DNA from: Elusimicrobia bacterium RIFOXYD2_FULL_34_15
GTDB taxonomy: Bacteria; Elusimicrobiota; UBA8919
NCBI GenBank assembly: GCA_001800605.1
Contig: MGVS01000068.1
Span: 14,028-78,027 of the forward strand
Direction of reading: 5' to 3'
DNA: 64,000 bases
How positions within the stretch are numbered: the stretch's first letter is position 1; the number at the start of each line of letters is the position of its first letter. Both the position numbers and the translations under genes were made by a program. The notes beneath the pieces are model-generated. The model saw nothing but the letters and a program-made list of their open reading frames with translations. It was not told the origin of the DNA and did not search any database. This document shows, piece after piece, positions 2,543-37,547 of the stretch.

Positions 2543-2548
2543 AATATT

Positions 2549-20602: not shown

Positions 20603-21601
20603 ATGATTATAACAAGAACGCCTCATAGAATATCGTTTTTCGGCGGCGGAACAGATTATCCTTCATGGTATCTAAAAAACGACGGGAAAGTGCTCGGCGT
20701 TGCAATTGATAAGTATTGCTATCTAATCGTCCGTAAACTGCCGCCTTTTTTTGAAAATAAATACAAAATTGTATATTCGCAGATGGAATTTCCAAAAACC
20801 ATAGACGAAATTAAACATCCTTCTGTAAGAGAAACTCTTAAATATTTTAATTATAAAGAAGGAGTTTCTATACACCACGACGGCGATATTCCTGCAAGAT
20901 CCGGGATGGGTTCAAGCTCTGCTTTTACCGTAGGTTTATTAAAAGCTATGTATGCGCTTGAAGGGAATATTATTTCGAAAAGTGATTTATTTAAACTTGC
21001 AATAAATATTGAACAAAATATCATAAAAGAAAATGTCGGTTCCCAGGACCAGGTTTTTGCTGCTTATGGGGGATTAAATAAGATTGATTTTTTAAAAAGC
21101 GGTGAAATCGTTGTAACTCCGGTAGTTTTAAAACAAGAAAATTTATCACTGTTCGACAAAAAATTTATGCTTTTTTTTACTGGAATATCGCGTAACGCAT
21201 CCGATATAGCAGAAGAACAGATAAAAAATACAAATAAAAATGAAAATGAACTTTTTAAACTAAGCAAACTTGTTGACGATGCTTATGATATTTTAACATC
21301 ATCAAAACCTGAGTTTGGATTATTCGGGAAACTTCTTAACGAAACATGGAAATTAAAACGAAGCCTGTCGGCAAAAATAAGCAATAGTTTAATAGATAAT
21401 ATTTATGATACTGCTATGAAAAATGGAGCAGCAGGAGGAAAATTGCTTGGTGCGGGAGGCGGCGGTTTTATGCTTTTTTATGTAGAACCTGAAAATCAAG
21501 TGAAAGTAAAAAATGCATTGAAAAATTTAATTAATATAACTTTTGAGTTTGATTTTTCCGGTTCTGAAATAATAGTTTATAAACCGGAATTTTATAAATA
21601 A
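20603..21601 (+). CDS. GHMP-family sugar kinase (HddA / fucokinase-like)
   Basis: 332 aa. PARSGMGSSSAFTVGL ATP-binding GHMP motif. C-terminal GAGGGGF motif. Confidence 0.75.
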   Translation: MIITRTPHRISFFGGGTDYPSWYLKNDGKVLGVAIDKYCYLIVRKLPPFFENKYKIVYSQMEFPKTIDEIKHPSVRETLKYFNYKEGVSIHHDGDIPARSGMGSSSAFTVGLLKAMYALEGNIISKSDLFKLAINIEQNIIKENVGSQDQVFAAYGGLNKIDFLKSGEIVVTPVVLKQENLSLFDKKFMLFFTGISRNASDIAEEQIKNTNKNENELFKLSKLVDDAYDILTSSKPEFGLFGKLLNETWKLKRSLSAKISNSLIDNIYDTAMKNGAAGGKLLGAGGGGFMLFYVEPENQVKVKNALKNLINITFEFDFSGSEIIVYKPEFYK

Positions 21602-21603
21602 TT

Positions 21604-22023
21604 ATGAATAAGAGTTTTGAAATATACAAACATAAAAATGAAGTTATAGCAATAGTGATAAGAAGCAATTTTAAAGGCAAAGATATGCGGTTCTTTACTG
21701 AAGACAGTTCTTCGCAGCAACTTGCATTTATATCGCATAAAAAGGGGAAAATAATAGAACCGCACAGGCATAATAAAATTAAAAGAGAAATATATTACAC
21801 ACAGGAAGTAGACATTCTAAAGAAAGGAAAGATAAAAGTATATCTTTATACAAAAAATGGTGAATTTTTCAAAAATGTAATTCTTAACAGCGGCGATTTA
21901 ATACTATTTGCTTCCGGCGGACACGGTTATAGGGTTATTAAGGATATCGAGATGATACTTGTTAAACAAGGTCCCTATGCGGGAGATAAAGATAAAACAT
22001 ACATAGACGATGATTTATCTTAA
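21604..22023 (+). CDS. Small cupin-fold protein (WbuC/sugar-isomerase-like)
   Basis: 139 aa. HRH..K motif followed by a beta-rich region ending GGHGYRV. This size and cupin character are common in O-antigen loci. Confidence 0.4.
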   Translation: MNKSFEIYKHKNEVIAIVIRSNFKGKDMRFFTEDSSSQQLAFISHKKGKIIEPHRHNKIKREIYYTQEVDILKKGKIKVYLYTKNGEFFKNVILNSGDLILFASGGHGYRVIKDIEMILVKQGPYAGDKDKTYIDDDLS

Positions 22024-22029
22024 TTTTTT

Positions 22030-22962
22030 ATGAATAAAGATTCTAAAATTTATATCGCAGGGCATAACGGACTTGTAGGTTCCGCCTTGGTTAAAAAATT
22101 AAAAGAAGAGGGCTTTCTAAATATCATTACCCGCTCTTCATTAGAATTGAATCTTGTAAATCAAAAAGAAGTAGAGGATTTTTTTAATAATGAAAAACCC
22201 GATTATGTATTTTTACTTGCAGCAAGCGTCGGAGGCATTATTGAAAACAGAGAAAAACCGGCTAATTTCATTTATCCTAATTTATTAATAGAAAGTAACA
22301 TAATTAACTCCGCATGGAAATCAAATGTAAAAAAGTTAATATTTTTGGCTTGTTCAATTATTTATCCGAAAGAATGCCAGCAACCGTTAAAAGAGGAATA
22401 TCTACTATCCGGTTATCCTGAGCCGACTAATCTTGCACATACCATTGCCAAAATTGCAGGTATTGTATTATGCCAATCTTATAACAAACAATACAAAACA
22501 AATTTTATCTCCTGTGTAGCGTCAAACATATTCGGTCCTAATGATAATTTCGATCAAACAGCAGGGCATGTAATACCCGCTTTTATAAGTAAATTTCATA
22601 ATGCAAAAATAAATAATGAACCAAGCGTAACTATGTGGGGAACGGGAAAACCGTTGAGAGATTTTATTTATGTAGATGATGTTGTAAATGCATGCCTATT
22701 TCTTACAGAAAAATATGATTCTTCTGAAATTATAAATGTCGGCTCAGGGAAAGATATTTCCATAGGAGAACTTGCAGAATTAATTAAAGAAGTTACAGGA
22801 TATAATGGTAAAATTATATTTGATACCACAAAACCTGACGGTGCACCCAAAAGATTACTTGATAACAGCAAGATAAGTTTGTTGGGTTGGCAATTAAATG
22901 TTCCATTAAAAGAAGGTTTAGAAAATACTTATAATTGGTGGCTGAATAAGTTTTTAAAGTGA
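22030..22962 (+). CDS. fcl: GDP-L-fucose synthase (GDP-4-keto-6-deoxy-D-mannose 3,5-epimerase/4-reductase, Fcl/WcaG family)
   Basis: 310 aa. N-terminal KIYIAGHNGLVGSAL. YPEPTNLAHTIAKIAGIVLCQSYNKQY (YxxxK region) and FGPNDNF are collinear with E. coli Fcl. Confidence 0.85.
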   Translation: MNKDSKIYIAGHNGLVGSALVKKLKEEGFLNIITRSSLELNLVNQKEVEDFFNNEKPDYVFLLAASVGGIIENREKPANFIYPNLLIESNIINSAWKSNVKKLIFLACSIIYPKECQQPLKEEYLLSGYPEPTNLAHTIAKIAGIVLCQSYNKQYKTNFISCVASNIFGPNDNFDQTAGHVIPAFISKFHNAKINNEPSVTMWGTGKPLRDFIYVDDVVNACLFLTEKYDSSEIINVGSGKDISIGELAELIKEVTGYNGKIIFDTTKPDGAPKRLLDNSKISLLGWQLNVPLKEGLENTYNWWLNKFLK

Positions 22963-22972
22963 GGATTAGAAA

Positions 22973-23950
22973 ATGAAAGTATTAATTACCGGTATTACCG
23001 GATTTGCCGGAAGTTATTTAGCTGATTATATTTTAGGCTTGGATAAAAATATTGAGGTTTACGGTACTAAAAGATATACTAGCTCGCTTAAAAATATAAA
23101 ACATATTCAAAATAAAATTACATTGTTGGAATGTGAATTACGGGATCAGAATTGTGTTGACGAAATTGTTTCAAAAATAAGACCCGATAAGATATTTCAC
23201 TTAGCAGCACAAACATATATTCCTGCAAGTTTCGCATATCCTCTAGATACTATTGTTACTAATATAACCAGCACAATGGCACTTTTAGAAGCTGTAAGAA
23301 AGTTTAAAACTGAATCTATTATTCATTTTTGCAGCAGTTCGGAAGTCTATGGCAGAGTTGAAAAATACGAAGTTCCTATTAACGAAAATAATCAAATGCG
23401 GCCTCAAAACCCGTATGCAGTAAGTAAATCCGCCTGTGATTTACTTGTCCAGCAATATTATGCTTCATATAAACTAAAAGTGTTAATAAGTAGAACCTTT
23501 GGATATATAGGACCCAGGGCAAAAGACGTTTTTGCATATTCTTCTTTTGCTAAACAAATTGTCGAGATTGAAAAAGGATTGAGAGAACCCGTTATTTACG
23601 TCGGAAATCTAAAATCTGTCAGAACTTTTCTGGATATCCGGGATGTAGCGGAAGCATACTGGCTTTTAACGGAGAAGTGCACTTACGGAGATGTTTATGT
23701 AATCGGCAGCAATGTTACAATGGAAATAAGTGAACTTTTATATAAATTACTTGATTTAAGCACTGTCGGTAAAAAGGTAAAAGTTGAAGTTGATAAAAAA
23801 TTACTGCGTCCTTCAGATGTCACACTACAGATTCCTGATAGTTCAAAATTCATTAAACAAACCGGTTGGACTCCTAAAATTTCTTTTGAACAAAGTATGC
23901 AGGATTTGCTAAATTATTGGAGAAATGAACTTGGAGATAACAAATGCTAA
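22973..23950 (+). CDS. GMD-family short-chain dehydratase/reductase (GDP-mannose 4,6-dehydratase-like / Rmd-like 4-reductase)
   Basis: 325 aa. VLITGITGFAGSYLADYIL N-terminus and TYIPASFAYPLDT region resemble GMD/Rmd. It is shorter than canonical GMD. Confidence 0.6.
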   Translation: MKVLITGITGFAGSYLADYILGLDKNIEVYGTKRYTSSLKNIKHIQNKITLLECELRDQNCVDEIVSKIRPDKIFHLAAQTYIPASFAYPLDTIVTNITSTMALLEAVRKFKTESIIHFCSSSEVYGRVEKYEVPINENNQMRPQNPYAVSKSACDLLVQQYYASYKLKVLISRTFGYIGPRAKDVFAYSSFAKQIVEIEKGLREPVIYVGNLKSVRTFLDIRDVAEAYWLLTEKCTYGDVYVIGSNVTMEISELLYKLLDLSTVGKKVKVEVDKKLLRPSDVTLQIPDSSKFIKQTGWTPKISFEQSMQDLLNYWRNELGDNKC

Positions 23951-24879
23951 AAATACTTGTTACAGGCGGGGCCGGTTATATCGGTTCCGTTTTGGTTCCT
24001 AAATTGTTACAAAATGGATTTGAAGTTGCTGTTGTCGATAATTTTACATATTCACAAAATTCCCTTGCTGATTGCTGTTACAATGACAATTTCAGTGTTA
24101 TACGCGGTGATGTACGCGACGAAAATCTTATGAAGTCGTTGCTTGAAAGTCCGGATATCATTATACCATTAGCTGCACTTGTCGGTGCTCCTTTATGTGA
24201 TAATGACAGAATTGGCGCAAAAACTATTAATACAGATGCGGTAAAATTTATCGCCGATAATACAAGCAAAAATCAACGGATTATAATACCGACTACTAAC
24301 AGCGGATACGGTATCGGACAAAAAGACAAATTTTGTACAGAAAAAACACCTTTAAATCCGATATCATTATACGGAACAACAAAAATGGAAGCTGAAAAAT
24401 CCGTATTGGATAGAGGTAATTCTATCAGTTTCCGCCTGGCAACAGTATTCGGAATGTCACCGAGAATGCGGCTTGATTTGATGGTCAACGATTTTGTTTA
24501 TCGTGCTGTTAACGACAGGTTTATCGTTTTATTTGAGGGGCATTTTAAAAGAAATTTTATACATATAAGAGATGTTGTTCGTGCATTCGAACATGCTATA
24601 AAGAATTTCGAAAAAATGAAAAATGAACCCTATAATGTCGGATTATCTGAAGCGAACCTTTCTAAACTTGAACTTTGTGAAAAAATAAAAAAATATATTC
24701 CGGATTTTGTTTACCTTGAAGCACCGGTAGGTGAAGATAAAGATAAAAGAGATTATATTGTCTCAAACGAAAAAATAGAAAAAACCGGTTTTAAACCGGA
24801 ATTTTCTCTCGATATTGGCATAAAAGAACTAATCAAGGGTTATAAAATAATAAAAAATACAAAATATGGAAACGTTTAA
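23944..24879 (+). CDS. NAD-dependent epimerase/dehydratase family protein
   Basis: 311 aa. ILVTGGAGYIGS Rossmann motif. YGTTK (YxxxK). Confidence 0.75.
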   Translation: MLKILVTGGAGYIGSVLVPKLLQNGFEVAVVDNFTYSQNSLADCCYNDNFSVIRGDVRDENLMKSLLESPDIIIPLAALVGAPLCDNDRIGAKTINTDAVKFIADNTSKNQRIIIPTTNSGYGIGQKDKFCTEKTPLNPISLYGTTKMEAEKSVLDRGNSISFRLATVFGMSPRMRLDLMVNDFVYRAVNDRFIVLFEGHFKRNFIHIRDVVRAFEHAIKNFEKMKNEPYNVGLSEANLSKLELCEKIKKYIPDFVYLEAPVGEDKDKRDYIVSNEKIEKTGFKPEFSLDIGIKELIKGYKIIKNTKYGNV

Positions 24880-24885: not shown

Positions 24886-25725
24886 ATGATTCATCAAATA
24901 TGTAAAGATATTATAAAGCAGTTAAATATCAATAAATTTATTGAAACCGGCACTCACTTAGGCGGAACCGTCGCTGAAGTCAGCAGCTGGTTCCAAAACC
25001 TGGATCCGGATTTTGGAACTATTAAAACCAGCATAGCCGGTCCGCAACTTAACAAATTTGTCAGCCCTGAACAAAATATTTACCGTTATCCGGTTTTTGA
25101 AAATTCTTCTGATAAAGCAAAAACAAAACTTTATTCTATAGATATAGATAAACAAAGACAAAATATATTGCAAACTTTGTTTCAGAGCAATCCTAATATA
25201 AAATTAATTTCTGACTATTCTGATAAGTTCATAAAAAAAATGATAGATACAAATTTGATTTCGGATGAAGATAATTGTTTTTTTTATCTTGATGCACACG
25301 GAGGCGAATCCTGGCCTCTTAGAGATGAAATAAGTGAAATACTGAAATTAAAACGTTCTATTATTTCTATTGATGATTTTGTTGTACCTTTCCAGCCTAA
25401 TGCAGGATTTGATGTCTATGGAAATAAAATTTGCGACTGGTATTATATCAAAGATTTGTTTGAAAACCATAAAACATATTTATATTATCCTAATAAACCT
25501 GATACTGATAACAGGGGAAAGGTTTTCATTTTTGTAGGATACAACAAGAACGAATTAAAGTTTATGGAAAAATTACCCTGTTTTAAACCTCTATTTAAAG
25601 GCGATTTGTATATAACAACCTTAAAAGTCAGGTTGATTCATACCAAATTATATTCTTCAATAGAAAAAACAAAACTTTATTCTTTAATAAGAAAGAATAT
25701 ATTTAAGAAAATAGGAATATCATAA
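24886..25725 (+). CDS. Hypothetical protein, possible TylF/CmcI-like SAM-dependent O-methyltransferase
   Basis: 279 aa. The segment FIETGTHLGGTVAEV resembles the E-x-G-x-x-x-G-x-S motif of TylF/CmcI methyltransferases. Weak. Confidence 0.3.
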   Translation: MIHQICKDIIKQLNINKFIETGTHLGGTVAEVSSWFQNLDPDFGTIKTSIAGPQLNKFVSPEQNIYRYPVFENSSDKAKTKLYSIDIDKQRQNILQTLFQSNPNIKLISDYSDKFIKKMIDTNLISDEDNCFFYLDAHGGESWPLRDEISEILKLKRSIISIDDFVVPFQPNAGFDVYGNKICDWYYIKDLFENHKTYLYYPNKPDTDNRGKVFIFVGYNKNELKFMEKLPCFKPLFKGDLYITTLKVRLIHTKLYSSIEKTKLYSLIRKNIFKKIGIS

Positions 25726-25728: not shown

Positions 25729-26634
25729 ATGCGTTCACCTACTTACGGAATTATCCCGAATATAGCAAAATCTATCAAGAGCGACATATTGCTTCAAATT
25801 TTCAATAATATGTGTCGTGTCAGATATTTTGAGTTAGGTTTGATTGAAGCATTCAAAGAAAAAATTTTTGATAAATTTGTATATCTTTCCTCCGGTCAGG
25901 AATCCATTGCTGCATCAATGTCCCTTGTAATTCCTGATTTTATGATTTTTGCGCAGCATAGATGCCACTCTACTTATTTGTCATTTGGAGGAGATCCTGT
26001 CGCATTACGCGATGAATTGATAGGCCTGCCCAGCGGTACCAGCGGAGGCAGGGCGGGATCAAACTGCCTGCAATATCACAAAAACAACATGACTATGTTC
26101 GGACATCACGGATTAATCGGGGAAAACGTTCCTTTCGGGGTCGGAGCTGCACTTGGAAGCGGAAAACCTGTGGTGTGTTTCTTTGGTGACGGAGCTGCAG
26201 AAGAGGATTATGTTTTTGCGGCAATGGGGTTTGCCGTAACACATAAACTGCCGGTATTTTTTGTATGTGAAGATAATAATCTGTCGGTCCTTACCACTAT
26301 TGATAAGCGGCGGTCATGGAGCATGACAGAAGTAGCAAAAGGACTTGGAATGCCTGCTGTGGATATTACGGATGACCCTTGGACCGTTTACAGAAAAACA
26401 CAGGAATTAAAAGATACTCTTCCGGCTTTTATTAATATCTATACCTGCAGGGCGTATTGGCACAATAGCGTAGGAACAGACGGGCCTCCCGAATGGGACA
26501 GGTTTAAAATAGTAAAAGATGAATTAATCAAATTGGGAATGGGAAAACAAATCGAAGAGATAGAAAATAAAATTAAAACTTCAATGGAACAAATATGGGA
26601 CAAAAAACTGTTGCAGAAACTATTAAAGAAATAA
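25729..26634 (+). CDS. Thiamine-diphosphate-dependent dehydrogenase E1 component, alpha subunit (standalone)
   Basis: 301 aa. SGQESIAASMSL, GDGAAEEDYVFAAMGFA and CEDNN motifs of the E1_dh family. Confidence 0.75.
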   Translation: MRSPTYGIIPNIAKSIKSDILLQIFNNMCRVRYFELGLIEAFKEKIFDKFVYLSSGQESIAASMSLVIPDFMIFAQHRCHSTYLSFGGDPVALRDELIGLPSGTSGGRAGSNCLQYHKNNMTMFGHHGLIGENVPFGVGAALGSGKPVVCFFGDGAAEEDYVFAAMGFAVTHKLPVFFVCEDNNLSVLTTIDKRRSWSMTEVAKGLGMPAVDITDDPWTVYRKTQELKDTLPAFINIYTCRAYWHNSVGTDGPPEWDRFKIVKDELIKLGMGKQIEEIENKIKTSMEQIWDKKLLQKLLKK

Positions 26635-27488
26635 CAAGAAAACATTTGACTGAAGACAACGGGCTTCTTCTGGGAGAAAGCATTACCGCCGTAGGATGGG
26701 TTAATAATACCGTTCCGGATTGTAAAGGTATTATTGAGCTTCCAATGACAGATGTTGCAGGCGCCGGCATTGCGGTTGGCGCTGCAATGGTCGGACGACG
26801 CCCGATATTTGTTATAAGATTTCAGGATTTTTTGGTTTTGAACGGTAGCCCTTTGATTTTCTTTGCGGCAAAAATAAAGGAACTGCACGGTAATTGCGCG
26901 CCTGTTTTTGTCAGGGCGATAGCGGCAGAAAATTTCGGGCCTTGCCACTCGGGAGTCCTTCATAGCATTTTTATGCATTTTCCCGGTTTCCGTGTCTGTT
27001 CACCGATGACGCCTGGAGAATATGAAAAAATCTGGCAGGATTATATGGAACATGACGACCCTATGATTGTTAGCGAACACCGCGCGAGCTATAAAAATAC
27101 GGAAGAGTTGAATGATGTCTTAGAAAAAAATGCAGATATAACACTTTACCCGGTTTCAGCAACAAGATTTGAAGCTGTAAAGGCGGCACAAATGCTGAAA
27201 AAGGAAGGAATAATATGCAACATTATAAATATTCTATGGCTGAAACCTTTCGAACTGACTAAACGTCTTATCGATCCTTTGACTGAAACAAAGAAAGGAC
27301 TGGTTATAGATCCGGGCCATGAAATAGCTGGCGCTTCCCGCTCAATCGCTTACGAACTTATGTATGCAACAAATTGTAAAGTCGGAGCGCTGGGTTTAGA
27401 AGATAAAACCAAATGTCTTTATGAACCGCTGCAAAACAAATATCCTGACGCGGAAAAAATTTACAAAGCAGTTAAAAATATGATTTAG
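26595..27488 (+). CDS. Thiamine-diphosphate-dependent dehydrogenase E1 component, beta subunit (transketolase-like pyrimidine-binding + C-terminal domain)
   Basis: 297 aa. Overlaps the alpha subunit by 40 nt. Pyrimidine-binding-domain-like N-terminus. No E2 or E3 nearby. Confidence 0.7.
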   Translation: MGQKTVAETIKEITRKHLTEDNGLLLGESITAVGWVNNTVPDCKGIIELPMTDVAGAGIAVGAAMVGRRPIFVIRFQDFLVLNGSPLIFFAAKIKELHGNCAPVFVRAIAAENFGPCHSGVLHSIFMHFPGFRVCSPMTPGEYEKIWQDYMEHDDPMIVSEHRASYKNTEELNDVLEKNADITLYPVSATRFEAVKAAQMLKKEGIICNIINILWLKPFELTKRLIDPLTETKKGLVIDPGHEIAGASRSIAYELMYATNCKVGALGLEDKTKCLYEPLQNKYPDAEKIYKAVKNMI

Positions 27489-27513
27489 ACATCCTATAAA
27501 GAAAAGGATGTCT
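27487..27513 (+). terminator. Perfect 9-bp inverted repeat (AGACATCCT-N9-AGGATGTCT) overlapping the E1-beta stop codon; terminator-like hairpin
   Basis: Seen directly in the sequence. No strong U-tract follows, so an intrinsic terminator is not certain. Confidence 0.4.
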
Positions 27514-27657
27514 GATTACACTGATTAAAAGGCAGATTACACAGATTATTTTAAAGGGTTCAGGTTCTAATCAGTGTAATCGGTGTTAAAAATCCCTGCC
27601 TGCCGGTAGGCAGGTGTGTAATCAGATATAATGTTAATTATATCAGGAGAAATAATT
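27514..27657 (+). promoter_or_regulatory. Structured leader/repeat element copy A: four GATTACAC/GTGTAATC octamers in both orientations, a GC-rich palindrome CCTGCC-N8-GGCAGG, a TATAAT box (27627-27632) and an AGGAG RBS (27645-27649)
   Basis: 60-bp core 27574-27633 is 100% identical to 39030-39089, followed by a shared ATTATATCAGGAG. Confidence 0.6.
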
Positions 27658-28203
27658 ATGAAAAGAGCTGTGATAATAACAGGACAAAATTTTCAGGATG
27701 AAGAATTCATTTACCCTTTTTACCGTTTGCAGGAAGCCGGATTCAAAGTGGATGTCGCAATTAAAGACAAAGTAATCACTAAAGGAAAATACGGCGTTCC
27801 GGCCAAACCAACCATTGACACAAAAGATTTAAAGGAATCGGATTATGATTTAGTAATATTACCCGGAGGCCATGAAGCGCCGGACAGAGTAAGACAGATT
27901 AAAGAGGTTTTGGACTTTGTGAAAGCCATGTATGATAAAGGTAAAGTAATTTCCACGATTTGTCACGGCCCCTGGATCCTTATCTCTGCCGGTATCGTAA
28001 AAGGTAAAAAAATATCCGGTTATATAGGGATTAAAGACGATATTATTAACGCAGGTGCAGAATACGTCGACGCTCCTGTGGTTGTTGACGGTAACATAAT
28101 CTCTTCTCCTCACTACAAATATAACGGCGACTGGATGAGAGAAACCCTAAAAATAATAGAAGCGGATCCTTCAACTTCGCTCAGGACAAGTAAACGCGGA
28201 TAA
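27658..28203 (+). CDS. DJ-1/PfpI-family protein (class I glutamine amidotransferase-like)
   Basis: Start moved from the track's 27631 to ATG 27658, which lies 8 nt after AGGAG. The track start sits inside the repeat element. The catalytic-elbow region ICHGPWILISAGI is typical of DJ-1/PfpI. Confidence 0.75.
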   Translation: MKRAVIITGQNFQDEEFIYPFYRLQEAGFKVDVAIKDKVITKGKYGVPAKPTIDTKDLKESDYDLVILPGGHEAPDRVRQIKEVLDFVKAMYDKGKVISTICHGPWILISAGIVKGKKISGYIGIKDDIINAGAEYVDAPVVVDGNIISSPHYKYNGDWMRETLKIIEADPSTSLRTSKRG

Positions 28204-28276
28204 AGAAAGCTGATTTTACGCAGATGACACAAAATGTCATCCTGAGCCATAGGCTAAGGATCCAGGAAGTAATTTT

Positions 28277-30004
28277 ATGAATAAAAATGATAAAATATAT
28301 GTTGCGGGACATAAAGGACTAGTGGGTTCTGCGATACTCCGCCGGCTTGAAAAAGACCGTTATAAAAATATCATAACAAAGGAACATGCCGAGCTGGATT
28401 TATGCGATCAGTATCAAGTTAAAGCATTTTTTGAAAGGGAAAAACCTAAATATGTGTTCCTTGCAGCTGCTAAAGTCGGCGGTGTTTTTGCAAACAATAC
28501 TTACCGCGCCGATTATATCTATGAAAACTTGATAATACAAAGTAACGTTATTCATCATTCTTTTTTAAATGAAGTTAGTAAACTTCTCTTTTTAAATTCT
28601 GCTGATGCTTATCCAAAAGACCATCAAAAATGCGCAAAAGAGGAAGATCTGCTAAAAGGCCCTTTGGAACCTACGTGCGAACCTTTCGCCACAGCTAAAA
28701 TTGCGGGAATTAAAATGTGTGAATCTTATAATCGCCAGTACGGGACCGATTTTATAGTAGTTACCGCGCCTAATGTTTACGGACCACACCAGCATTATGA
28801 CATACTCAATGCGCAGGTATTGCCTTCTCTGGTTAAGAAATTTCACGAAGCTAAAATTGCGGGTTCTAAAGAGGTTGTCATCTGGGGATCCGGCGGTGCT
28901 GTAAGAGATTTTTTATTTGTAGATGACCTTGCTGATGCGTGCATCTTTTTGATGAATAATTCTTCCGGCTGTGACTCTTTCAATACGGGAACCGGAAAAG
29001 GCCATACAATCCTTGAGTTAGCTGAAACAATTAAAAAGGTTATAGGATTCAAAGGTAGAATTTTATTTGATAAAACAAAACCAGAAGGCGTCAGCAAAAA
29101 ACTTCTGGACATATCGAAAATACGAAGTTTAGGCTGGAAATCAAAAACTAAACTGGAAGACGGAGTGAAAAACAGTTATAGTTCTTTTTTAGACGAGTTA
29201 GACAAGAAAGAAGTTAGGGTTTCAAAGATATTGAATATAAAAATCTGTGATAAAGATATCATTGCTTTAAACAGACTGAAATCGATTAAAAAAACTATTT
29301 CTGTAAGCGTTCAGCCGGATAATTATAAAAATAAGATTGTTGTAAAACCATGGGGGCATGAATTTTTAGTTTTTGAAAACGAAAAAACAGCGGTTTGGCT
29401 TTTATACATAGAAAAAGGCAACTCAACATCCATGCACTGCCACCCGCAAAAAAAGACATCGCTTATCATTTTATCCGGAAAAGCGATGAGCAATACCTTC
29501 CAATCTAAAAATTATTTGAAGGGCGGGGATACTATTATCATTGAGAAAGGAGTATTTCATTCCACTAAAGTTTTATCCGATAACGGACTTTTCATGTTAG
29601 AGATAGAATCTCCGCCGATTAAGACCGACCTTGTAAGGCTGGAGGACAGATATGGGCGGGAAACTTCCGGCTATGAAGGCATTGCAGAAATGGAAACTAA
29701 AAATCTTACTGAATACGGATATTTCAGTTTTGATGAATCTGATTGTTATAAAAAATATATTAAAGAAACCGAAAGATTTATTGTAAAATTTGAGGTTTTT
29801 CCCGATAATAAAGAATTTCAAAAACATTTTGAAACCAATGAAAACGGACTCTATACATCATGCAGAGGCAAGCTTATGGATAAAGAAAATAATATTGTAC
29901 TAAACCTTGCTGATACTCAAAAAACTTACAGTCTTTCAAATGTAAAAAAAATTCACATTTCCGAAAAAACTGTTCTATTAAAAACCATAACAAAGGATAA
30001 ATAA
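28277..30004 (+). CDS. Fusion protein: N-terminal GDP-L-fucose synthase-like domain (~310 aa) + C-terminal cupin domain
   Basis: 575 aa. N-terminal KIYVAGHKGLVGSAILRRL...EPTCEPFATAKIAGIKMCESYNRQYGTDF is strongly collinear with Fcl. Where E. coli Fcl has SSCIYPK (epimerase Cys) this protein has SADAYPK. The C-terminal PWGHEF...SMHCHPQKKTS matches the cupin G(x)5HxH...E metal-binding motifs. Confidence 0.8.
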   Translation: MNKNDKIYVAGHKGLVGSAILRRLEKDRYKNIITKEHAELDLCDQYQVKAFFEREKPKYVFLAAAKVGGVFANNTYRADYIYENLIIQSNVIHHSFLNEVSKLLFLNSADAYPKDHQKCAKEEDLLKGPLEPTCEPFATAKIAGIKMCESYNRQYGTDFIVVTAPNVYGPHQHYDILNAQVLPSLVKKFHEAKIAGSKEVVIWGSGGAVRDFLFVDDLADACIFLMNNSSGCDSFNTGTGKGHTILELAETIKKVIGFKGRILFDKTKPEGVSKKLLDISKIRSLGWKSKTKLEDGVKNSYSSFLDELDKKEVRVSKILNIKICDKDIIALNRLKSIKKTISVSVQPDNYKNKIVVKPWGHEFLVFENEKTAVWLLYIEKGNSTSMHCHPQKKTSLIILSGKAMSNTFQSKNYLKGGDTIIIEKGVFHSTKVLSDNGLFMLEIESPPIKTDLVRLEDRYGRETSGYEGIAEMETKNLTEYGYFSFDESDCYKKYIKETERFIVKFEVFPDNKEFQKHFETNENGLYTSCRGKLMDKENNIVLNLADTQKTYSLSNVKKIHISEKTVLLKTITKDK

Positions 30005-31549
30005 ATGTTAGATCTTCAAAATATTGCGATTGTCATATCCGAAAAGGATAATGTAGCTGTCGCAAAAACAAATATAAAAAAAGGCGTTATCGTCAAATAT
30101 GTAAGCGATACCTTTAAAATTTTAAATAATATTTCAAAAGGATTCAGATTTTCTATAAAAGACATTAAGAAAAACGAATTGGTTAAACAATATGGATATC
30201 CATTCGGAATATCCAAAGGTATAAAAAAGGGACAATTAATCAGTGCGGATAACGTCAAAGAATATTTTGTTAATTACAATAAAGTAATTAAACCTTCTCA
30301 AATAAATAAATATCAACACAAAAAAAATATTTTAAACAAAACCTTCAAAGGTTATGTAAGATCTAACGGGCAAGTAGGGACAAGAAATTATTATCTTATA
30401 GTACCTACATCCATGTGCGCAAGCGATGTCACTTCTAAAATTGCAAATTCTTTAGATAATGACAAATTATTAAAAAGTAAATATAAAAATATTGACGGAT
30501 TTGTAGCAGCCGCCCACACCGAAGGATGCGGTTGTAATGACGGCGATATCATAAACAGATTAATGCTAACCCTAAAAAACACAATCATTCATCCTAATGT
30601 TGGAGGAGCATTAATTGTTGATTTAGGTTGTGAGAAAACAAATAAATCGGTTATTTCTAAATATTTAGGAAATCTAAATAAATATAAAAAACCTATAGAC
30701 TTTATTACTATTCAGGATTTAGGCGGTACAGGTAAAGCAATAACATCAGGTCAAAATATAATTCTTAGCAGACTAAGTAAAGTTAATAACTTTTATAGGC
30801 AAGAAGTTGCTTTAAAACATCTTAAAATAGGGACTGAATGTGGCGCGTCTGATTCATTCTCCGGTATTACAGCAAATCCTTTAATCGGAAATACTGTAGA
30901 CAAAATAATCGATTTGGGCGGTTCAGCGATATTATCAGAAATCCCTGAGATGATAGGTGCAGAAGCAAACCTGATACAAAGAATGTTAAATAATCAAACC
31001 GTTAAAAAATTTAAAAACGGTATAAATTATTATAAAAATTTAGCCAGAACATTAAACGTATCAATGGACGGAAATCTTGTGGACGCCAATAAAAAAGGCG
31101 GATTGATAACCGTAACCTTAAAAAGTTTGGGAGCAATATTGAAAGGCGGTAGTTCAGAAGTTGTCGATTTTCTCGATTATGCAGAACTAATAAAAAAACA
31201 CGGTTTAAATATAATGAACGGACCAGGTAATGATTTAGAATCTATGACGGGTATAGTTGCTTCCGGAGCAAATCTAATCCTATTTTCTACAGGCTTGGGT
31301 GCTACTGAAGGAAGTTTAACTGCTCCTGTAATAAGAATTACTTCAACAACTGAACTTTATAATAAAATACCGGATGATATGGATTTCAACGCGGGTCGCC
31401 TGCTTGATGATAATAATACATCTTTAGACAAGTTAAGCAATGAACTCCTTGATTTAGTAATTGCTATTGCTTCAGGTCAGCGGTCTTGTTCAGAAGTCTG
31501 GAAAAAAAGGTCGTTCCAGATATGGACAGCCGGTAAATTATCTTTATGA
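30005..31549 (+). CDS. UxaA-family sugar-acid dehydratase (altronate/galactarate dehydratase-like; SAF + GD_AH_C domains)
   Basis: 514 aa. N-terminal SAF-like IAIVISEKDNVAVAKTNIKKG. AAAHTEGCGCNDGD cysteine cluster as in UxaA. Confidence 0.7.
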   Translation: MLDLQNIAIVISEKDNVAVAKTNIKKGVIVKYVSDTFKILNNISKGFRFSIKDIKKNELVKQYGYPFGISKGIKKGQLISADNVKEYFVNYNKVIKPSQINKYQHKKNILNKTFKGYVRSNGQVGTRNYYLIVPTSMCASDVTSKIANSLDNDKLLKSKYKNIDGFVAAAHTEGCGCNDGDIINRLMLTLKNTIIHPNVGGALIVDLGCEKTNKSVISKYLGNLNKYKKPIDFITIQDLGGTGKAITSGQNIILSRLSKVNNFYRQEVALKHLKIGTECGASDSFSGITANPLIGNTVDKIIDLGGSAILSEIPEMIGAEANLIQRMLNNQTVKKFKNGINYYKNLARTLNVSMDGNLVDANKKGGLITVTLKSLGAILKGGSSEVVDFLDYAELIKKHGLNIMNGPGNDLESMTGIVASGANLILFSTGLGATEGSLTAPVIRITSTTELYNKIPDDMDFNAGRLLDDNNTSLDKLSNELLDLVIAIASGQRSCSEVWKKRSFQIWTAGKLSL

Positions 31550-31604: not shown

Positions 31605-32237
31605 ATGAAAAAATATAAAGCTGTATTATTTGATTTTGACGGGGTTATCGGTAAAACAATGGATGACAATTATAATGCCTGGAGATATGCACTTTCAAAA
31701 TATAATATAGATATTACTAAAAATGAATATTTTCAATTAGAAGGTATGAGCACTACAAAAACTGCTGAATATTTTTTAAGTGAAAACTCTAAAAGTATCC
31801 GTAAAGCGAAAGAAGTAGTCGAAGATAAAGAAGATTATTTTTTAAAAAACAACAAATTTTCCGTCTATACTGATGTTAAATCTTTGCTTCCTTATTTAAA
31901 AAAGAAGGGTTATTCACTCGGATTAGTATCCGGCGGTTCTTTTAAAAGAATTGCTAAATCTTTAAGTAATAAATTACTCAAGTACTTTGACGTTGTTTTA
32001 ACGAGCGATAGAGTAAAAAAATGCAAACCGCATCCCGAACCTTATTTGACAGCGGCAAAAATGCTTTCAGTAAAACCTTATTATTGTTTAGCTGTAGAAA
32101 ATGCACCTTTAGGCATCGAATCGGCAAAAAGGGCTAAAATGGATTGCATAGCAATAACTTCAACTTTGGATAAAAAATATTTAAAAAAAGCAGATAAAAT
32201 AATAAAAAAACTGGGAGAACTTCGTAGAATACTTTAA
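31605..32237 (+). CDS. HAD-superfamily (subfamily IA) phosphatase/phosphomutase
   Basis: 210 aa. VLFDFDGVIGKT motif I (DxD). GLVSGGS motif. Confidence 0.8.
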   Translation: MKKYKAVLFDFDGVIGKTMDDNYNAWRYALSKYNIDITKNEYFQLEGMSTTKTAEYFLSENSKSIRKAKEVVEDKEDYFLKNNKFSVYTDVKSLLPYLKKKGYSLGLVSGGSFKRIAKSLSNKLLKYFDVVLTSDRVKKCKPHPEPYLTAAKMLSVKPYYCLAVENAPLGIESAKRAKMDCIAITSTLDKKYLKKADKIIKKLGELRRIL

Positions 32238-34191: not shown

Positions 34192-34785
34192 TTGGTTATG
34201 AATAAAATGAAATTAAAAAAACGGGATTCCAATAAATTCTGGAAAGTACTCTCGGAAAAAAAAGTTTTTGAATTTAAAAATAGATTTTCCGTTTCTATCC
34301 AAAAAGTTAAATTACCTGATGGAAGAATAATAAATGATTACCATCACATGGAATTCGCAGAATCCGCAGTAATTGTTGCGCGTACCGATAAAAGCAATAT
34401 ACTATTTTCAAGACAATATTTACACGGACCTGATGCCATAAGCTTTGTATTACCCGGAGGTAAAATAGAAAATAATGAAAAACCTTTGGTAGCAGCTAAA
34501 AGAGAATTGCTTGAAGAAACCGGATATGTTTCAAATAAATGGAAATTTCTCGGTGATTTTGTATTGCATATAAACTACGGCTGCGGAAGAGTGCATTTTT
34601 ATTTTGCCGATGATGTTAAAAAAACAGCTCCGCCAAAATCCGGTGACCTTGAAGAAATGGAAATATTGCAATTATCCGAACAGCAAATTATTAAAGCTTT
34701 GAAAAAAGGGAATATTCTTTGTCTAGCCAGCATTTCAGCTTTGATGCTGGGAAAAGTATTTATCAGCAAAGGTGAATTATGTTAA
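34192..34785 (+). CDS. NUDIX hydrolase
   Basis: 197 aa. Nudix box PGGKIENNEKPLVAAKRELLEETGY (Gx5Ex7REUxEExGU). Confidence 0.85.
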   Translation: MVMNKMKLKKRDSNKFWKVLSEKKVFEFKNRFSVSIQKVKLPDGRIINDYHHMEFAESAVIVARTDKSNILFSRQYLHGPDAISFVLPGGKIENNEKPLVAAKRELLEETGYVSNKWKFLGDFVLHINYGCGRVHFYFADDVKKTAPPKSGDLEEMEILQLSEQQIIKALKKGNILCLASISALMLGKVFISKGELC

Positions 34786-36104
34786 AAATCGGTTTTATTT
34801 TTCCAAGCAGTGAATATCTGCACGACCCTTTCAGGGGTGACCCGCATACACATTTTCAAATATTGACCGTTTTAGAATCTCATTTCGGTAAAAAAGTTGA
34901 CCTTTCATTGATTGATTTAAGGGGTATTAAAAAAGAGTTTGCAATATATCATATACCCGAATGCGATGTTTATCTTCATTCAATTTACACTCTTGATTAT
35001 GCAGAGCAAGAATCGATTGTAAGTAATTTGCGTGCACGTTATCCAAAGGCCAAGCATATTGCAGGCGGGCCGCACGCCGCAGTTTTTCAGAAAAAAAGTT
35101 TAAAAGTATTTGATGCACTAATTCTCGGAGATGGAGAAGAATCGATTATTAAAGCAATTCAGGATATTTTGAAGTCAAAACTTAAAAAGATTTATGAACA
35201 AAACAAAATAATAGATATAAACCGCTATCCGTATCCAAGCAGAAAATATTTGCCGGAATCTACCATAGCCAGAAAGGGATTGATATCTTTAAAAGATACA
35301 AGGGGTTACGAAGATTTGTTAAGTACTACCGTTATTTTTAGCAGAGGTTGTCCCTATAACTGTGCCTTCTGTGCAATGCCGCAAATAAAAAAATATAATC
35401 CGCAAGTACGTTATAAACACCCTCATCTTGTTGAAGAAGAAATTGAATATTTAAAACGGGACTACGGTATAAAAGCTATCAGCCTACTCGACGAAATCGC
35501 TATACCGCCCAACCCTAAAAAAGCTATTCCTTATTTAGAAGCTATCGGCAGGACAGGAATAATATGGAAAGCGCAGTGCAGAGTTGACAGCATTACTCCT
35601 GAAATAGCAAAATTACTGAAGAAAACCGGTTGTGTAATCATGTGCTTTGGAATTGAGAGCGTTTGTCAAAATTCGTTAGATATTATAAATAAAAAGATTA
35701 ACATTGAAAGAACAAAAGAATCAATAAAACTTATGAAACAAAACGGCATTGAATGCAGAGTATATATGATTATCGGCCTTCCAAATGAACCCGAAGATAT
35801 AGTTGAGCAAACATGGTCGTTCATTAAAGAAACTGCGCCTGATTTAGTTTATTTATGCCTGTTAACCATAAGACCCGGGACTGTAATGTACAATAATCCG
35901 GAAAAATTTGGGATTAAAAATATAACAAACGACTGGTCAAAAACAATGCATATGTATAGCCGGTATGATAGTGAAATGCCAAGCCTGACATTTGAATACG
36001 AAAAAAATACACCTTGGGGAAAGGGAACAAGCCAGGAAAAGATAATAAAAAACTATTTAGAATTGCAGAGAAGATTAAAAGAAGCTAACCTGGCTATCAG
36101 ATAA
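34779..36104 (+). CDS. B12-binding domain radical SAM enzyme
   Basis: 441 aa. AGGPHAA and ILGDGEES B12-domain motifs. CPYNCAFC radical-SAM motif. Confidence 0.85.
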   Translation: MLKIGFIFPSSEYLHDPFRGDPHTHFQILTVLESHFGKKVDLSLIDLRGIKKEFAIYHIPECDVYLHSIYTLDYAEQESIVSNLRARYPKAKHIAGGPHAAVFQKKSLKVFDALILGDGEESIIKAIQDILKSKLKKIYEQNKIIDINRYPYPSRKYLPESTIARKGLISLKDTRGYEDLLSTTVIFSRGCPYNCAFCAMPQIKKYNPQVRYKHPHLVEEEIEYLKRDYGIKAISLLDEIAIPPNPKKAIPYLEAIGRTGIIWKAQCRVDSITPEIAKLLKKTGCVIMCFGIESVCQNSLDIINKKINIERTKESIKLMKQNGIECRVYMIIGLPNEPEDIVEQTWSFIKETAPDLVYLCLLTIRPGTVMYNNPEKFGIKNITNDWSKTMHMYSRYDSEMPSLTFEYEKNTPWGKGTSQEKIIKNYLELQRRLKEANLAIR

Positions 36105-36105
36105 A

Positions 36106-37518
36106 ATGAAAATACTTTTAGTTAATCCTCCGGTACCTGAAACATATTATAACAGGGAATTTTATGTTCCTTCAGGCCTATTATATTTGGCCTCCGTTTT
36201 GAAGAAAAACGGAGAAGAAGTAAAACTGCTAGATTTGAAATGCCCAAAATATGAATCTAAAATTAATCGGCACAAACATTTTGAAGAAATATTGATTGAT
36301 ACAGTCGCTTCTTATAAACCGTATATTATCGGTTTTGGGTGTTTATTTTCCGGTAATTTTCCTGACGTTTTAAAATTCACGGAGACAACGAAAAAAGCCT
36401 TCAGCAATATTCCGATTATTATCGGCGGAATTCATCCGACCATCTATCCGGAAAAAATTCTGGGTAACTGCCCGTCTATTGATTGGCTTATTTTGGGTGA
36501 AGGAGAACAAGCTATAGTGCAATTGATTAATACTATTAAGAATAAATCATTCGAGTTTGATAAAATTGACGGTTTTGCATACAGAAATAACGGCAAAATA
36601 TTCGTCAATCCTAAAAAATGTTTTATTGAAAATATTGATACTATACCTTTCCCTGCATACGATATTATAGATTTGAAAGATTATTATATTGATACTTCTG
36701 ACTGGTACAATCCAAAAAATCTTCCTATAAACACATCCATCCCGATTATTTCCAGCAGGAGCTGTCCAAACAGATGCAACTTTTGTTCTATGTATACCGT
36801 TATGGGACCGAGGTGGAGGGCAAGAACTCCCAAAAATGTAGTTGATGAAATAGAATTAGTTTATAAAAAATTTAAACTGCAGCATTTCTCAATTATGGAT
36901 GATAATTTTTCATTAAATAAAAAACGCGTGCTTGAAATTTGCAGTATGATAAAAGAAAGAAAATTAGATATCCTATTTGAAACTCCTAACGGACTTTCAA
37001 TAAATACTTTAGATGAAGAAGTGCTGGATGCATTGGTTTCTACCGGTTTAACAAGGGTTTCTTTAGCAATAGAAAGCGGTTCCGACTTCATACGCAATAA
37101 AGTAATGGGTAAACACCTTAGCAGGGAGAAAATATTCGAAATAATAAATATTACAAGAAAATATAAGGATTTATATGTCAAAGCCTTTTTTGTAATAGGT
37201 ATGCCTGAAGAGACCAGTGAAACATTAATGGAAACTTATAATCTGATAAAAGAAATAAATGTAGACAGAATATACTTGCATAATATTATACCTTTTCCCG
37301 GGACAAAAGTATTTGAACAGGCTTTAAGGGATAATCTCTTTATAGATATTAATCCAAATGAATTTTATAAATCCGACGATTTGTATATAACAAATTTTAA
37401 CCGTTTTTTTATTAAACCATATAAACTGACTTTGAAAGATTTACAAGAGTTCAGAAGTAAATGTGAAATATTAATCAATGAACTAAAAACAAATAGGATT
37501 GGATCTGTAATAAAATAA
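36106..37518 (+). CDS. B12-binding domain radical SAM enzyme
   Basis: 470 aa. IGGIHPT and ILGEGEQA B12-domain motifs. CPNRCNFC radical-SAM motif. Confidence 0.85.
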   Translation: MKILLVNPPVPETYYNREFYVPSGLLYLASVLKKNGEEVKLLDLKCPKYESKINRHKHFEEILIDTVASYKPYIIGFGCLFSGNFPDVLKFTETTKKAFSNIPIIIGGIHPTIYPEKILGNCPSIDWLILGEGEQAIVQLINTIKNKSFEFDKIDGFAYRNNGKIFVNPKKCFIENIDTIPFPAYDIIDLKDYYIDTSDWYNPKNLPINTSIPIISSRSCPNRCNFCSMYTVMGPRWRARTPKNVVDEIELVYKKFKLQHFSIMDDNFSLNKKRVLEICSMIKERKLDILFETPNGLSINTLDEEVLDALVSTGLTRVSLAIESGSDFIRNKVMGKHLSREKIFEIINITRKYKDLYVKAFFVIGMPEETSETLMETYNLIKEINVDRIYLHNIIPFPGTKVFEQALRDNLFIDINPNEFYKSDDLYITNFNRFFIKPYKLTLKDLQEFRSKCEILINELKTNRIGSVIK

Positions 37519-37547
37519 TGATGTTAGGGCAGAGAGGAGATAAGTTT

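What the first reader, a model, noticed from the sequence alone, without database searches (positions are those of the whole stretch)
28277..30004. GDP-L-fucose synthase fused to a cupin domain, with the epimerase cysteine replaced (SSCIYPK to SADAYPK)
The first ~310 aa are an unmistakable Fcl/GMER homolog. It is fused to a ~260-aa C-terminal region carrying cupin metal-binding motifs (PWGHEF ... HCHPQ). At the position where E. coli GMER has its epimerisation acid/base Cys (GSSCIYPK) this paralog has SADAYPK, while the SDR Ser/Tyr/Lys and the His of YGPH are retained. Cupins in sugar pathways are often 3,5-epimerases or 3,4-ketoisomerases (RmlC, FdtA). The fusion may therefore have shifted epimerisation or isomerisation to the cupin while the SDR domain only reduces. 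That would yield a GDP-6-deoxyhexose stereoisomer other than L-fucose. A canonical unfused fcl (22030) is also present.
Basis: partly seen in the sequence, partly recalled or inferred. Interest (0 to 1): 0.6.

Follow-up and report, generated by a model that had tools for sequence, protein, structure and literature searches.

The report
Remodelled fucose-synthase domain fused to bicupin

Summary
The 575-aa ORF (28277-30004, +) is real. Its fusion architecture is conserved in about 69 protein clusters from Elusimicrobiota, Brocadia, Nitrospirae, Desulfobacterota and others.

The N-terminal 310 aa are a close GMER/Fcl homolog. The Cys109-to-Asp change is confirmed and holds in 69/70 fused proteins.
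- The SDR catalytic Tyr is Phe (F137).
- The true epimerase His (E. coli H179) is Gln (Q180). The "YGPH" His is a non-catalytic, variable position.

The "canonical" fcl at 22030 is also non-canonical (C107/I109/H136).

The C-terminal 265 aa fold confidently as a bicupin with an invariant 3-His site. By sequence it is closest to type II phosphomannose isomerase cupins, not to RmlC or FdtA.

This bicupin family has more than 2,200 representatives and is usually a standalone gene. It sits just after a DJ-1/PfpI gene, next to a HAD phosphatase and a thiamine-dependent enzyme, and is sometimes fused to the phosphatase or to the ThDP enzyme. The Fcl-like gene lies between DJ-1 and the bicupin in one clade and has fused to the bicupin at least twice.

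Best reading: an NADPH reductase that no longer epimerises, joined to a metal-dependent isomerase, in a ThDP-dependent GDP-sugar branching or extension pathway. The mechanism is inferred, not shown.

The parts
28277..30004 (+). Whole fusion ORF, 575 aa. Its stop codon abuts the start of the next gene.
   Evidence: full-length homologs P0001-P0069 at 45-77% identity and about 100% coverage
28277..29206 (+). GMER/Fcl-derived extended SDR domain (res 1-310). The G11/G14/G17 cofactor motif is at least 90% conserved; the predicted guanine-contact pair V181/W203 is invariant.
28598..28606 (+). S108-A109-D110, aligned with E. coli GMER S107-S108-C109. The epimerase base Cys is replaced by Asp.
28685..28699 (+). 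F137-A-T-A-K141, aligned with E. coli Y136-x-x-x-K140. The SDR catalytic Tyr is replaced by Phe and the Lys is kept.
28814..28816 (+). Q180, aligned with E. coli GMER His179 (the epimerase acid).
29207..29335 (+). Linker plus the N-terminal strand and helix of the bicupin module (res 311-353). Standalone bicupins start at about res 318.
29336..29680 (+). Cupin barrel 1 (res 354-468). It carries KPWGHEF, invariant H387/H389/H428 (the putative metal site), invariant K392, E442 and E444, and the PMI-type C-terminal motif KTDLVRLEDRYGRETSGYEG.
29681..30001 (+). Second, less conserved beta-barrel of the bicupin (res 469-575).
27631..28203 (+). DJ-1/PfpI family gene directly upstream. It is the most constant neighbour of the bicupin family.
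25729..27488 (+). Overlapping E1-alpha-like and E1-beta-like ThDP enzyme genes (25729-26634 and 26595-27488).
30005..31549 (+). UxaA/GarD-family acid-sugar dehydratase. An enolase-superfamily (MR_MLE) dehydratase replaces it in some unfused cassettes.
31605..32237 (+). HAD phosphatase of the beta-phosphoglucomutase/YqaB type. It is fused to the bicupin in other organisms.
20603..24879 (+). Upstream sugar-nucleotide block: HddA-like GHMP kinase, WbuC-like small cupin, a second non-canonical Fcl-like SDR, an NDP-sugar 4,6-dehydratase, and an SDR of about 311 aa.

Best explanation
The gene encodes a two-module tailoring enzyme of a conserved, uncharacterised GDP-sugar pathway.

Module 1 (res 1-310) descends from GDP-L-fucose synthase. 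It still appears to bind NADP(H) and a GDP-sugar, but it has lost both epimerisation residues (C109D, H179Q) and the classical Tyr acid (Y136F). I infer that it acts only as a stereospecific ketoreductase. Asp110, together with Ser108 and Lys141, would take over proton delivery, as Tyr109 is thought to do in MlghC. The reduced carbonyl could be the ring 4-keto group or an acyl-branch carbonyl.

Module 2 (res about 318-575) is a bicupin related to type II phosphomannose isomerases, with three invariant His residues. I infer a metal-dependent proton-transfer (enediol) isomerisation or epimerisation of an alpha-hydroxy-carbonyl intermediate.

Both modules would work around the ThDP-dependent step catalysed by the E1-alpha/beta genes here, which builds a branched or chain-extended sugar. 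The DJ-1/PfpI, acid-sugar dehydratase and HAD genes would supply or process the 2-oxo-acid or keto partner.

Shown here: the architecture, the residue changes, the fold, the gene neighbourhood and the recurrent fusions. Inferred: every catalytic step and the substrates.
For: - Homology and residue mapping are direct: the HMMER alignment to 1bsv is ungapped across the catalytic region, and family counts are.
- Of eight positions that separate fused proteins from 48 canonical Fcl, three are the catalytic C109, Y136 and H179.
- The cofactor glycines (G11/G14/G17), K141, N166, and V181/W203 are invariant or nearly invariant in 48 fused proteins. V181/W203 align with the guanine-binding Val/Trp described in PMC7949155. 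This argues against a dead domain.
- MlghC is an active C4 reductase with Ser/Phe/Lys and a Tyr at the Cys109 position (PMC7949155).
- Bicupin model: pLDDT 91.5, pTM 0.89. Foldseek best hits are bicupins, with type I PMIs further down the list.
- PF01050 scores above its gathering cut-off for the query and is hit by 28/34 members. TIGR01479 aligns to the end of its PMI domain.
- The order DJ-1, Fcl-like, bicupin, [dehydratase], HAD, E1a, E1b recurs across phyla, fused or unfused.
- The Fcl-like/bicupin fusion arose at least twice.
- Bicupin-ThDP, bicupin-HAD and ATP-grasp-bicupin fusions exist.
- The NTP transferase of the cassette is closest to mannose-1-P/heptose-1-P guanylyltransferases, and the kinase is closest to HddA.
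- Precedent for ThDP-built branched sugars followed by NAD(P)H reduction: PMC9306805 and PMC4753412.
Against: - No biochemical data exist for any member.
- In the unfused cassette proteins the SDR Ser is also replaced (Cys in 18 of 19). The redox chemistry may therefore be non-classical or absent.
- The full-length AF2 model has pTM 0.61, so there is no evidence that the two active sites face each other.
- 37 of 75 bicupin loci lack an adjacent Fcl-like gene, so the bicupin's core job does not depend on this SDR.
- Fusion of the bicupin to a HAD sugar phosphatase and its PMI-type sequence fit a small phosphorylated substrate at least as well as a GDP-sugar.
- This window contains no recognisable NTP transferase or DegT gene.
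Confidence: 0.4

Rival explanations
1. The cupin is a 3,5-epimerase or 3,4-ketoisomerase acting on GDP-4-keto-6-deoxy-D-mannose, and the SDR then reduces C4 or C3. The product is an unbranched GDP-6-deoxyhexose stereoisomer.
For: - Loss of the GMER dyad.
- Precedent of cupin epimerase plus Fcl-like reductase pairs, DdahB/C and MlghB/C.
- The HxH motif is also the catalytic pair of FdtA-type isomerases (my own knowledge, not tested).
- Fusion implies coupled steps.
- A 4,6-dehydratase lies nearby.
Against: - No sequence match to RmlC or FdtA families; the best match is the PMI type II cupin.
- The bicupin family occurs without an Fcl-like neighbour in about half of the loci. It is tied instead to DJ-1, HAD and ThDP enzymes, including direct fusions.
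- The invariant 3-His site suggests a metal, which RmlC-type epimerases do not use (my knowledge).
Confidence: 0.15
2. The bicupin works on a small non-nucleotide substrate, such as a sugar phosphate, sugar acid or oxo-aldehyde. Together with DJ-1, HAD and the dehydratase (or Ldh_2) it feeds the ThDP enzyme or the GHMP-kinase/guanylyltransferase route. Its fusion to the Fcl-like reductase would then join non-consecutive steps of one pathway, as the PMI cupin is joined to GDP-mannose pyrophosphorylase in ManC.
For: - PMI-type sequence signature.
- Bicupin-HAD fusions, and HAD of the sugar-phosphatase type.
- UxaA, MR_MLE and Ldh_2 alternate at the same place in the cassette. All three turn a 2-hydroxy acid into a 2-oxo acid, the usual ThDP donor.
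- An HddA-like kinase and an HddC-like transferase are present, but no SIS-type isomerase was seen in the cassettes.
- pTM 0.61 suggests independent domains.
Against: - Minimal clusters contain little besides NDP-sugar enzymes plus the module.
- Two independent fusions to a GDP-sugar SDR and strict adjacency favour consecutive steps.
- The predicted PMI ligand set (Gln/His/Glu/His, from my knowledge) is not kept.
Confidence: 0.3
3. The SDR half is catalytically inert. It would be an 'atypical SDR' that only binds the nucleotide sugar and/or NADP(H) and presents it to the bicupin or to the ThDP enzyme.
For: Tyr136, Cys109 and His179 are all replaced, and Ser107 is also replaced in the unfused relatives.
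Against: - Lys141, Asn166 and the cofactor glycines are at least 90% conserved (K141 invariant), and Asp110 is fixed in 69/70.
- MlghC shows that Ser/Phe/Lys Fcl homologs can be active reductases.
Confidence: 0.1
4. The fusion is an assembly or frameshift artefact that joins two adjacent genes.
For: In many genomes the two parts are separate adjacent genes about 55-65 nt apart.
Against: About 69 independent clusters from NCBI, JGI, ENA and Logan assemblies carry the same full-length architecture with a conserved linker. They form a monophyletic clade with their own signature, Asp110.
Confidence: 0.01

Closest known systems
GDP-L-fucose synthase (GMER/Fcl/WcaG, E. coli, PDB 1BSV)
   Same: Same extended SDR fold. 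There is about 45-60% identity to bacterial Fcl over 310 aa. The cofactor motif, Ser, Lys and the guanine-contact Val/Trp are kept.
   Different: Tyr136 is Phe, Cys109 is Asp and His179 is Gln. The protein scores below the NCBIfam equivalog cut-off (408 vs 500). It carries a 265-aa bicupin at the C-terminus.
Campylobacter jejuni heptose C4 reductases DdahC/MlghC (PDB 7ANH/7ANC) with cupin epimerases DdahB/MlghB
   Same: These are Fcl homologs that only reduce and that rely on a separate cupin. 7ANH is the best PDB hit (3.4e-96). MlghC also has Ser/Phe/Lys.
   Different: The partner cupins there are small RmlC-like, metal-free epimerases. Here the partner is a PMI-type bicupin with a 3-His site. 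Position 109 is Asp here, against Tyr or Thr there. No ThDP, DJ-1 or HAD module is described there.
Type II phosphomannose isomerase cupin domain of ManC/AlgA (Pfam PF01050, TIGR01479)
   Same: It is the best-matching curated family. It shares the KPWG start motif and the D-x-x-R-x-x-D-x-YGR end motif, and it is likewise fused to a GDP-sugar pathway enzyme.
   Different: The score is weak (25-28 bits). There is a second barrel. The fusion partner is an SDR rather than a nucleotidyltransferase. The expected Gln/Glu ligands are not kept (the last point is from my own knowledge of the motif).
ThDP-dependent branched-sugar pathways (YerE/YerF, ErwE/ErwF, AviB1/AviB2, Pau11/Pau12)
   Same: NDP-keto-sugar enzymes, a ThDP carboligase (ALS-type or E1-alpha/beta-type) and NAD(P)H reductases lie in one cluster. 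An acid-sugar dehydratase or Ldh_2 could supply hydroxylated 2-oxo acids.
   Different: None of the three papers I read or searched by keyword on these pathways mentions a bicupin, a DJ-1/PfpI protein or a HAD phosphatase. The nucleotide here is probably GDP. No aldolase is present.

Membership tests
GDP-L-fucose synthase (GMER/Fcl, EC 1.1.1.271) | Extended SDR fold with an N-terminal GxxGxxG cofactor motif and overall sequence homology | tested here: met
   Pfam Epimerase 1.5e-54; 1bsv 1.3e-94 over residues 5-310; G11/G14/G17 at least 90% conserved
GDP-L-fucose synthase (GMER/Fcl, EC 1.1.1.271) | Ser107-Tyr136-Lys140 catalytic triad | tested here: not met
   S108-F137-K141; Phe in 63/70 fused homologs
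GDP-L-fucose synthase (GMER/Fcl, EC 1.1.1.271) | Cys109/His179 acid-base pair for C3 and C5 epimerisation (PMC7949155) | tested here: not met
   D110 and Q180; 69/70 Asp and 66/70 Gln in the family
GDP-L-fucose synthase (GMER/Fcl, EC 1.1.1.271) | Score above the curated equivalog cut-off (NCBIfam NF047922) | tested here: not met
   408 bits against a cut-off of 500
GDP-L-fucose synthase (GMER/Fcl, EC 1.1.1.271) | [quoted passage not shown] | not testable with these tools
   Needs an enzyme assay
Reductase-only Fcl homologs (DdahC/MlghC type) | Fcl fold without the Cys/His dyad | tested here: met
   7anh is the best PDB hit
Reductase-only Fcl homologs (DdahC/MlghC type) | A proton donor is retained: Tyr136 in DdahC, or Tyr at position 109 when 136 is Phe in MlghC | tested here: not met
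   F137 and D110. Whether Asp can substitute is unknown
Reductase-only Fcl homologs (DdahC/MlghC type) | Works with an RmlC-like cupin C3/C5 epimerase | tested here: not met
   The attached cupin gives no RmlC-family hit and is PMI-like
RmlC-like NDP-sugar 3,5-epimerases / FdtA-type 3,4-ketoisomerases | Sequence membership in the respective Pfam families | tested here: not met
   No such family at E<=0.01 for any of the 34 C-terminal sequences or at E<=0.1 for the query
RmlC-like NDP-sugar 3,5-epimerases / FdtA-type 3,4-ketoisomerases | Single small cupin barrel, metal-independent | tested here: not met
   Two barrels and an invariant 3-His cluster. Actual metal binding was not tested
Type II phosphomannose isomerase cupin (PF01050) | Pfam score above the gathering threshold | tested here: met
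   25.3 bits (full protein) and 28.4 bits (domain alone) against 23.6; 28/34 members hit at E<=0.01
Type II phosphomannose isomerase cupin (PF01050) | Canonical metal and substrate ligands, and Man-6-P/Fru-6-P isomerase activity | tested here: inconclusive
   The HxH and the distal His are conserved, but the expected Gln/Glu positions are His and Thr/Lys (plus my recollection of the motif). Activity cannot be tested here
Bicupin fold | Two consecutive double-stranded beta-helix barrels | tested here: met
   AF2 pLDDT 91.5, pTM 0.89. Foldseek top hits are oxalate decarboxylase, quercetinase and seed globulins at E about 1e-9, though TM is only 0.3-0.4

The most novel reading that the evidence does not exclude
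The Fcl-like/bicupin protein is a sugar 'reductoisomerase'. A metal-dependent rearrangement or isomerisation of the alpha-hydroxy-ketone made by the neighbouring ThDP carboligase would be followed by NADPH reduction. This is the same logic as acetolactate synthase followed by KARI, and DXS followed by DXR. It would operate in a widespread, undescribed pathway (core module: DJ-1/PfpI, bicupin, ThDP enzyme, HAD) that builds branched or chain-extended GDP-sugars for pilin, flagellin or LPS glycosylation in many uncultured phyla.
Probability: 0.12. Interest if true: 0.8.

Novelty: new variant of a known kind. Interest (0 to 1): 0.55.

Why it matters
If the reading holds, the locus gives three things.

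1. A natural example of a GDP-fucose synthase scaffold stripped of all three textbook catalytic residues yet under strong purifying selection. That would inform how SDR active sites are re-engineered.
2. A first functional handle on a large bicupin family (more than 2,200 representatives at 50% identity) and on DJ-1/PfpI proteins inside glycan clusters. No function has been proposed for either in that setting.
3. A likely new route to branched or higher-carbon sugars that decorate the surfaces of Elusimicrobia, anammox bacteria, candidate-phyla-radiation (CPR) bacteria and DPANN (ultrasmall) archaea. Their glycans are essentially unknown.

The fusion itself points to which enzymes should be assayed together.

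Tried and rejected
- Sequence and profile searches of the bicupin against PDB chains gave only weak generic cupin or cysteine-dioxygenase hits.
- I rejected an O2-dependent dioxygenase role. Many hosts (Elusimicrobiota, Brocadia, Desulfobacterota) are anaerobes. This is an inference, not a test.
- The full-length AF2 model gave no fixed domain arrangement (pTM 0.61).
- Literature searches for the cassette (altronate dehydratase, transketolase or E1, PfpI, cupin, glycosylation island) found nothing relevant.
- I considered phosphonate, coenzyme-M-like, methionine-salvage (HAD plus ARD cupin) and heptose (GmhA-replacement) analogies. None fits all the conserved genes. They are kept only as ideas within the second rival.
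- The weak bicupin/DJ-1 pairs in Brenneria and Serratia (first barrel only, reversed order) were not pursued and may be an unrelated family.
Full report
**Observation**

The window carries one uninterrupted ORF at 28277..30004 on the + strand, 575 aa. Its TAA stop is followed directly by the ATG of the next gene.

Residues 7-229 match Pfam Epimerase (1.5e-54). Residues 353-457 match PF01050, the C-terminal cupin of type II mannose-6-phosphate isomerases (25.3 bits, gathering cut-off 23.6). Cupin_2 scores just below its threshold.

NCBIfam's GDP-L-fucose synthase equivalog scores 408 bits, below its cut-off of 500. TIGR01479 (GMP/PMI) aligns residues 332-461 to the very end of its PMI domain.

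**The SDR half**

The phmmer alignment to E. coli GMER (1bsv, 1.3e-94) has no gaps across the catalytic region, so positions can be read directly:

| E. coli GMER | Query | Role in GMER |
|---|---|---|
| Ser107 | S108 | SDR triad |
| Cys109 | D110 | epimerase base |
| Tyr136 | F137 | SDR triad, proton donor |
| Lys140 | K141 | SDR triad |
| His179 | Q180 | epimerase acid |

PMC7949155 confirms these roles: Ser107/Tyr136/Lys140 are the reduction triad, Cys109 is the base and His179 the acid for both epimerisations.

Two other statements are wrong. The Tyr is not retained. The His of 'YGPH' is E. coli His170, which is N, G or H in ordinary Fcl proteins.

In 70 fused proteins the pattern is fixed: Asp 69/70, Phe 63/70, Lys 70/70, Gln 66/70. 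In 52 unfused top hits Cys, Tyr and His dominate (49, 48 and 49).

Eight positions separate the fused family from 48 canonical Fcl: C109D, N133C, Y136F, T164P, D171Q, H179Q, A183S and E210D.

K141, V181 and W203 are invariant in 48 fused sequences, and the cofactor glycines and N166 are at least 90% conserved. V181 and W203 align with the guanine-contacting Val and Trp named in PMC7949155. The domain is therefore under selection to keep binding cofactor and GDP-sugar.

MlghC of C. jejuni is an active Fcl-like C4 reductase with Ser/Phe/Lys and a Tyr at the Cys109 position. Loss of Tyr136 therefore does not by itself mean loss of reductase activity.

**The cupin half**

An AlphaFold model of residues 311-575, built with 34 homologs, is confident (pLDDT 91.5, pTM 0.89). 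It shows two beta-barrels.

Foldseek against the PDB returns bicupins at E about 1e-9, including oxalate decarboxylase, quercetinase YxaG and seed globulins; type I PMIs appear further down at about 2-4e-8. TM-scores are only 0.3-0.4, so the fold class is clear but the function is not.

Invariant residues cluster in barrel 1: KPWGxE, TSxHxHxxK, FHxTK and ExExPxxKxDLxRxxDxYGRxxxGYE. They include three His residues, H387, H389 and H428.

PF01050 is hit by 28 of 34 family members. No RmlC or FdtA family appears. No solved structure is close in sequence.

**The fusion is real and recurrent**

About 69 clusters of 570-585 aa share the architecture at 45-77% identity. They come from Elusimicrobiota, Thermodesulfobacteriota, Candidatus Brocadia and others. 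The nearest (77%) is from an Elusimicrobiota MAG, so the window is probably from that phylum.

The bicupin alone is far more common as a standalone protein of about 260 aa (1,855 hits). A search of the 50%-identity representatives gives 2,219 hits at E<=1e-3.

In unfused loci the gene order matches the window: DJ-1/PfpI, Fcl-like SDR (312-316 aa), bicupin, then a UxaA-like or MR_MLE dehydratase (absent in some loci, e.g. L007), HAD, E1-alpha, E1-beta.

The unfused Fcl-like proteins carry Phe at 136 (19/20) and Leu, Pro or Gln at 179. They also carry Cys at the Ser107 position (18/19).

In an NJ tree all cassette Fcl-likes form one clade, apart from canonical Fcl. The main fused group of 67 sequences, including the query, is monophyletic. 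P0068 is a separate fusion that keeps the unfused-type active site. The two genes have therefore fused at least twice.

**What the bicupin is really tied to**

The 75 genome loci with a bicupin divide as follows:

| Class | Loci |
|---|---|
| Fused to Fcl-like | 17 |
| Unfused Fcl-like directly upstream | 21 |
| No adjacent Fcl-like | 37 |

A DJ-1/PfpI gene is present in 67 of the 75 loci, normally directly upstream.

Other architectures in the family are bicupin-ThDP enzyme (ALS/YerE type, about 850 aa; roughly 18 of the top 150 by length, of which four were Pfam-checked), bicupin-HAD (467-469 aa) and ATP-grasp-bicupin.

In clusters without E1-alpha/beta, an ALS-type ThDP enzyme, an Ldh_2 dehydrogenase and a HAD phosphatase lie in the same cluster as the bicupin, in L074 directly after it.

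The conserved module is thus DJ-1 + bicupin + ThDP enzyme + HAD, plus either Ldh_2 or an acid-sugar dehydratase. It is embedded among an NTP transferase, a 4,6-dehydratase, DegT and SDR genes. The transferase is closest to mannose-1-P and heptose-1-P guanylyltransferases, and the kinase is closest to HddA.

UxaA, MR_MLE and Ldh_2 all convert a 2-hydroxy acid into a 2-oxo acid, the usual ThDP donor. This fits the published scheme in which ThDP enzymes attach acyl groups from (hydroxylated) 2-oxo acids to NDP-4-keto sugars and an NAD(P)H reductase follows (PMC9306805). AviB1/AviB2 are a two-protein complex proposed to do this with pyruvate (PMC4753412).

**Mechanism**

I commit to the following, as inference.
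- The SDR half is an NADPH ketoreductase that no longer epimerises. Asp110 is a candidate replacement proton donor.
- The bicupin is a metal-dependent enediol-type isomerase or epimerase acting next to the ThDP step.
- The product is a branched or extended GDP-sugar rather than a plain 6-deoxyhexose.

The strongest rival is that the bicupin handles a small phosphorylated or acidic precursor. Its fusion to the SDR would then join non-consecutive steps, as in ManC.

The full-length AF2 model gives confident domains but pTM 0.61. It neither supports nor excludes a shared active site.

I found no paper describing this cassette.

**Verdict**

The object is a new variant of known kinds: a GMER-derived SDR with a remodelled active site, joined to an uncharacterised PMI-like bicupin. 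It lies inside a widespread, unstudied sugar pathway. Interest is moderate to high for enzymologists and glycobiologists.

Noticed in passing
window 21604-23950: A second cupin plus Fcl-like pair. A 139-aa WbuC-like cupin (35.5 bits, cut-off 42) is followed by the 'fcl' at 22030, which has Cys, Ile and His at the GMER Ser107, Cys109 and Tyr136 positions and keeps His179. An NDP-sugar 4,6-dehydratase follows. This arrangement resembles the DdahA/B/C layout.
   Followed up: partly
window 15050-16615, 18994-20595, 34779-38945, 41360-44063, 45970-47538, 55366-58216: An unusually high density of radical SAM genes in one glycan cluster: at least nine with B12-binding domains, one HemN-like and one SPASM-type. 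This suggests extensive C-methylation or other radical tailoring of the sugar.
   Followed up: no
window 262-9562: A type IV pilus assembly operon (PilM to the PilQ secretin) is followed by two Wzy_C (O-antigen-ligase-like) membrane proteins, one with TPR repeats. The downstream sugar cluster may therefore serve pilin or other protein O-glycosylation. In Candidatus Brocadia pituitae the homologous cassette lies next to flagellin, FliW and CsrA (L001).
   Followed up: partly
window 26001-30000: G+C rises to 0.41 (26-28 kb) and 0.36 (28-30 kb) against 0.26-0.34 elsewhere. The rise covers E1-beta, DJ-1 and the fusion gene. It may reflect the strongly conserved, horizontally shared core of the cassette.
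   Followed up: no
window 50495-52971: A type I restriction-modification methylase (HsdM) and a DUF3800 gene sit between blocks of glycan-biosynthesis genes.
   Followed up: no
L006 2593-3642; L089 7777-8823; L074 12546-13586: At the cassette position held by the UxaA-like dehydratase in the window, other genomes carry an enolase-superfamily (MR_MLE) dehydratase or an Ldh_2-family dehydrogenase. This looks like non-orthologous replacement of a step that makes a 2-oxo acid.
   Followed up: partly
window 47541-49427: A glutamine-dependent asparagine-synthase-type amidotransferase lies inside the cluster. ATP-grasp-bicupin fusions occur elsewhere (P0294). Both hint that the final sugar carries a carboxyl group that is amidated.
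   Followed up: no
window 24886-25725 and 16868-17386: Two ORFs (279 aa and 172 aa) inside the cluster have no Pfam hit. The 279-aa one also has no NCBIfam hit. It sits between the SDR and the E1-alpha gene.
   Followed up: no
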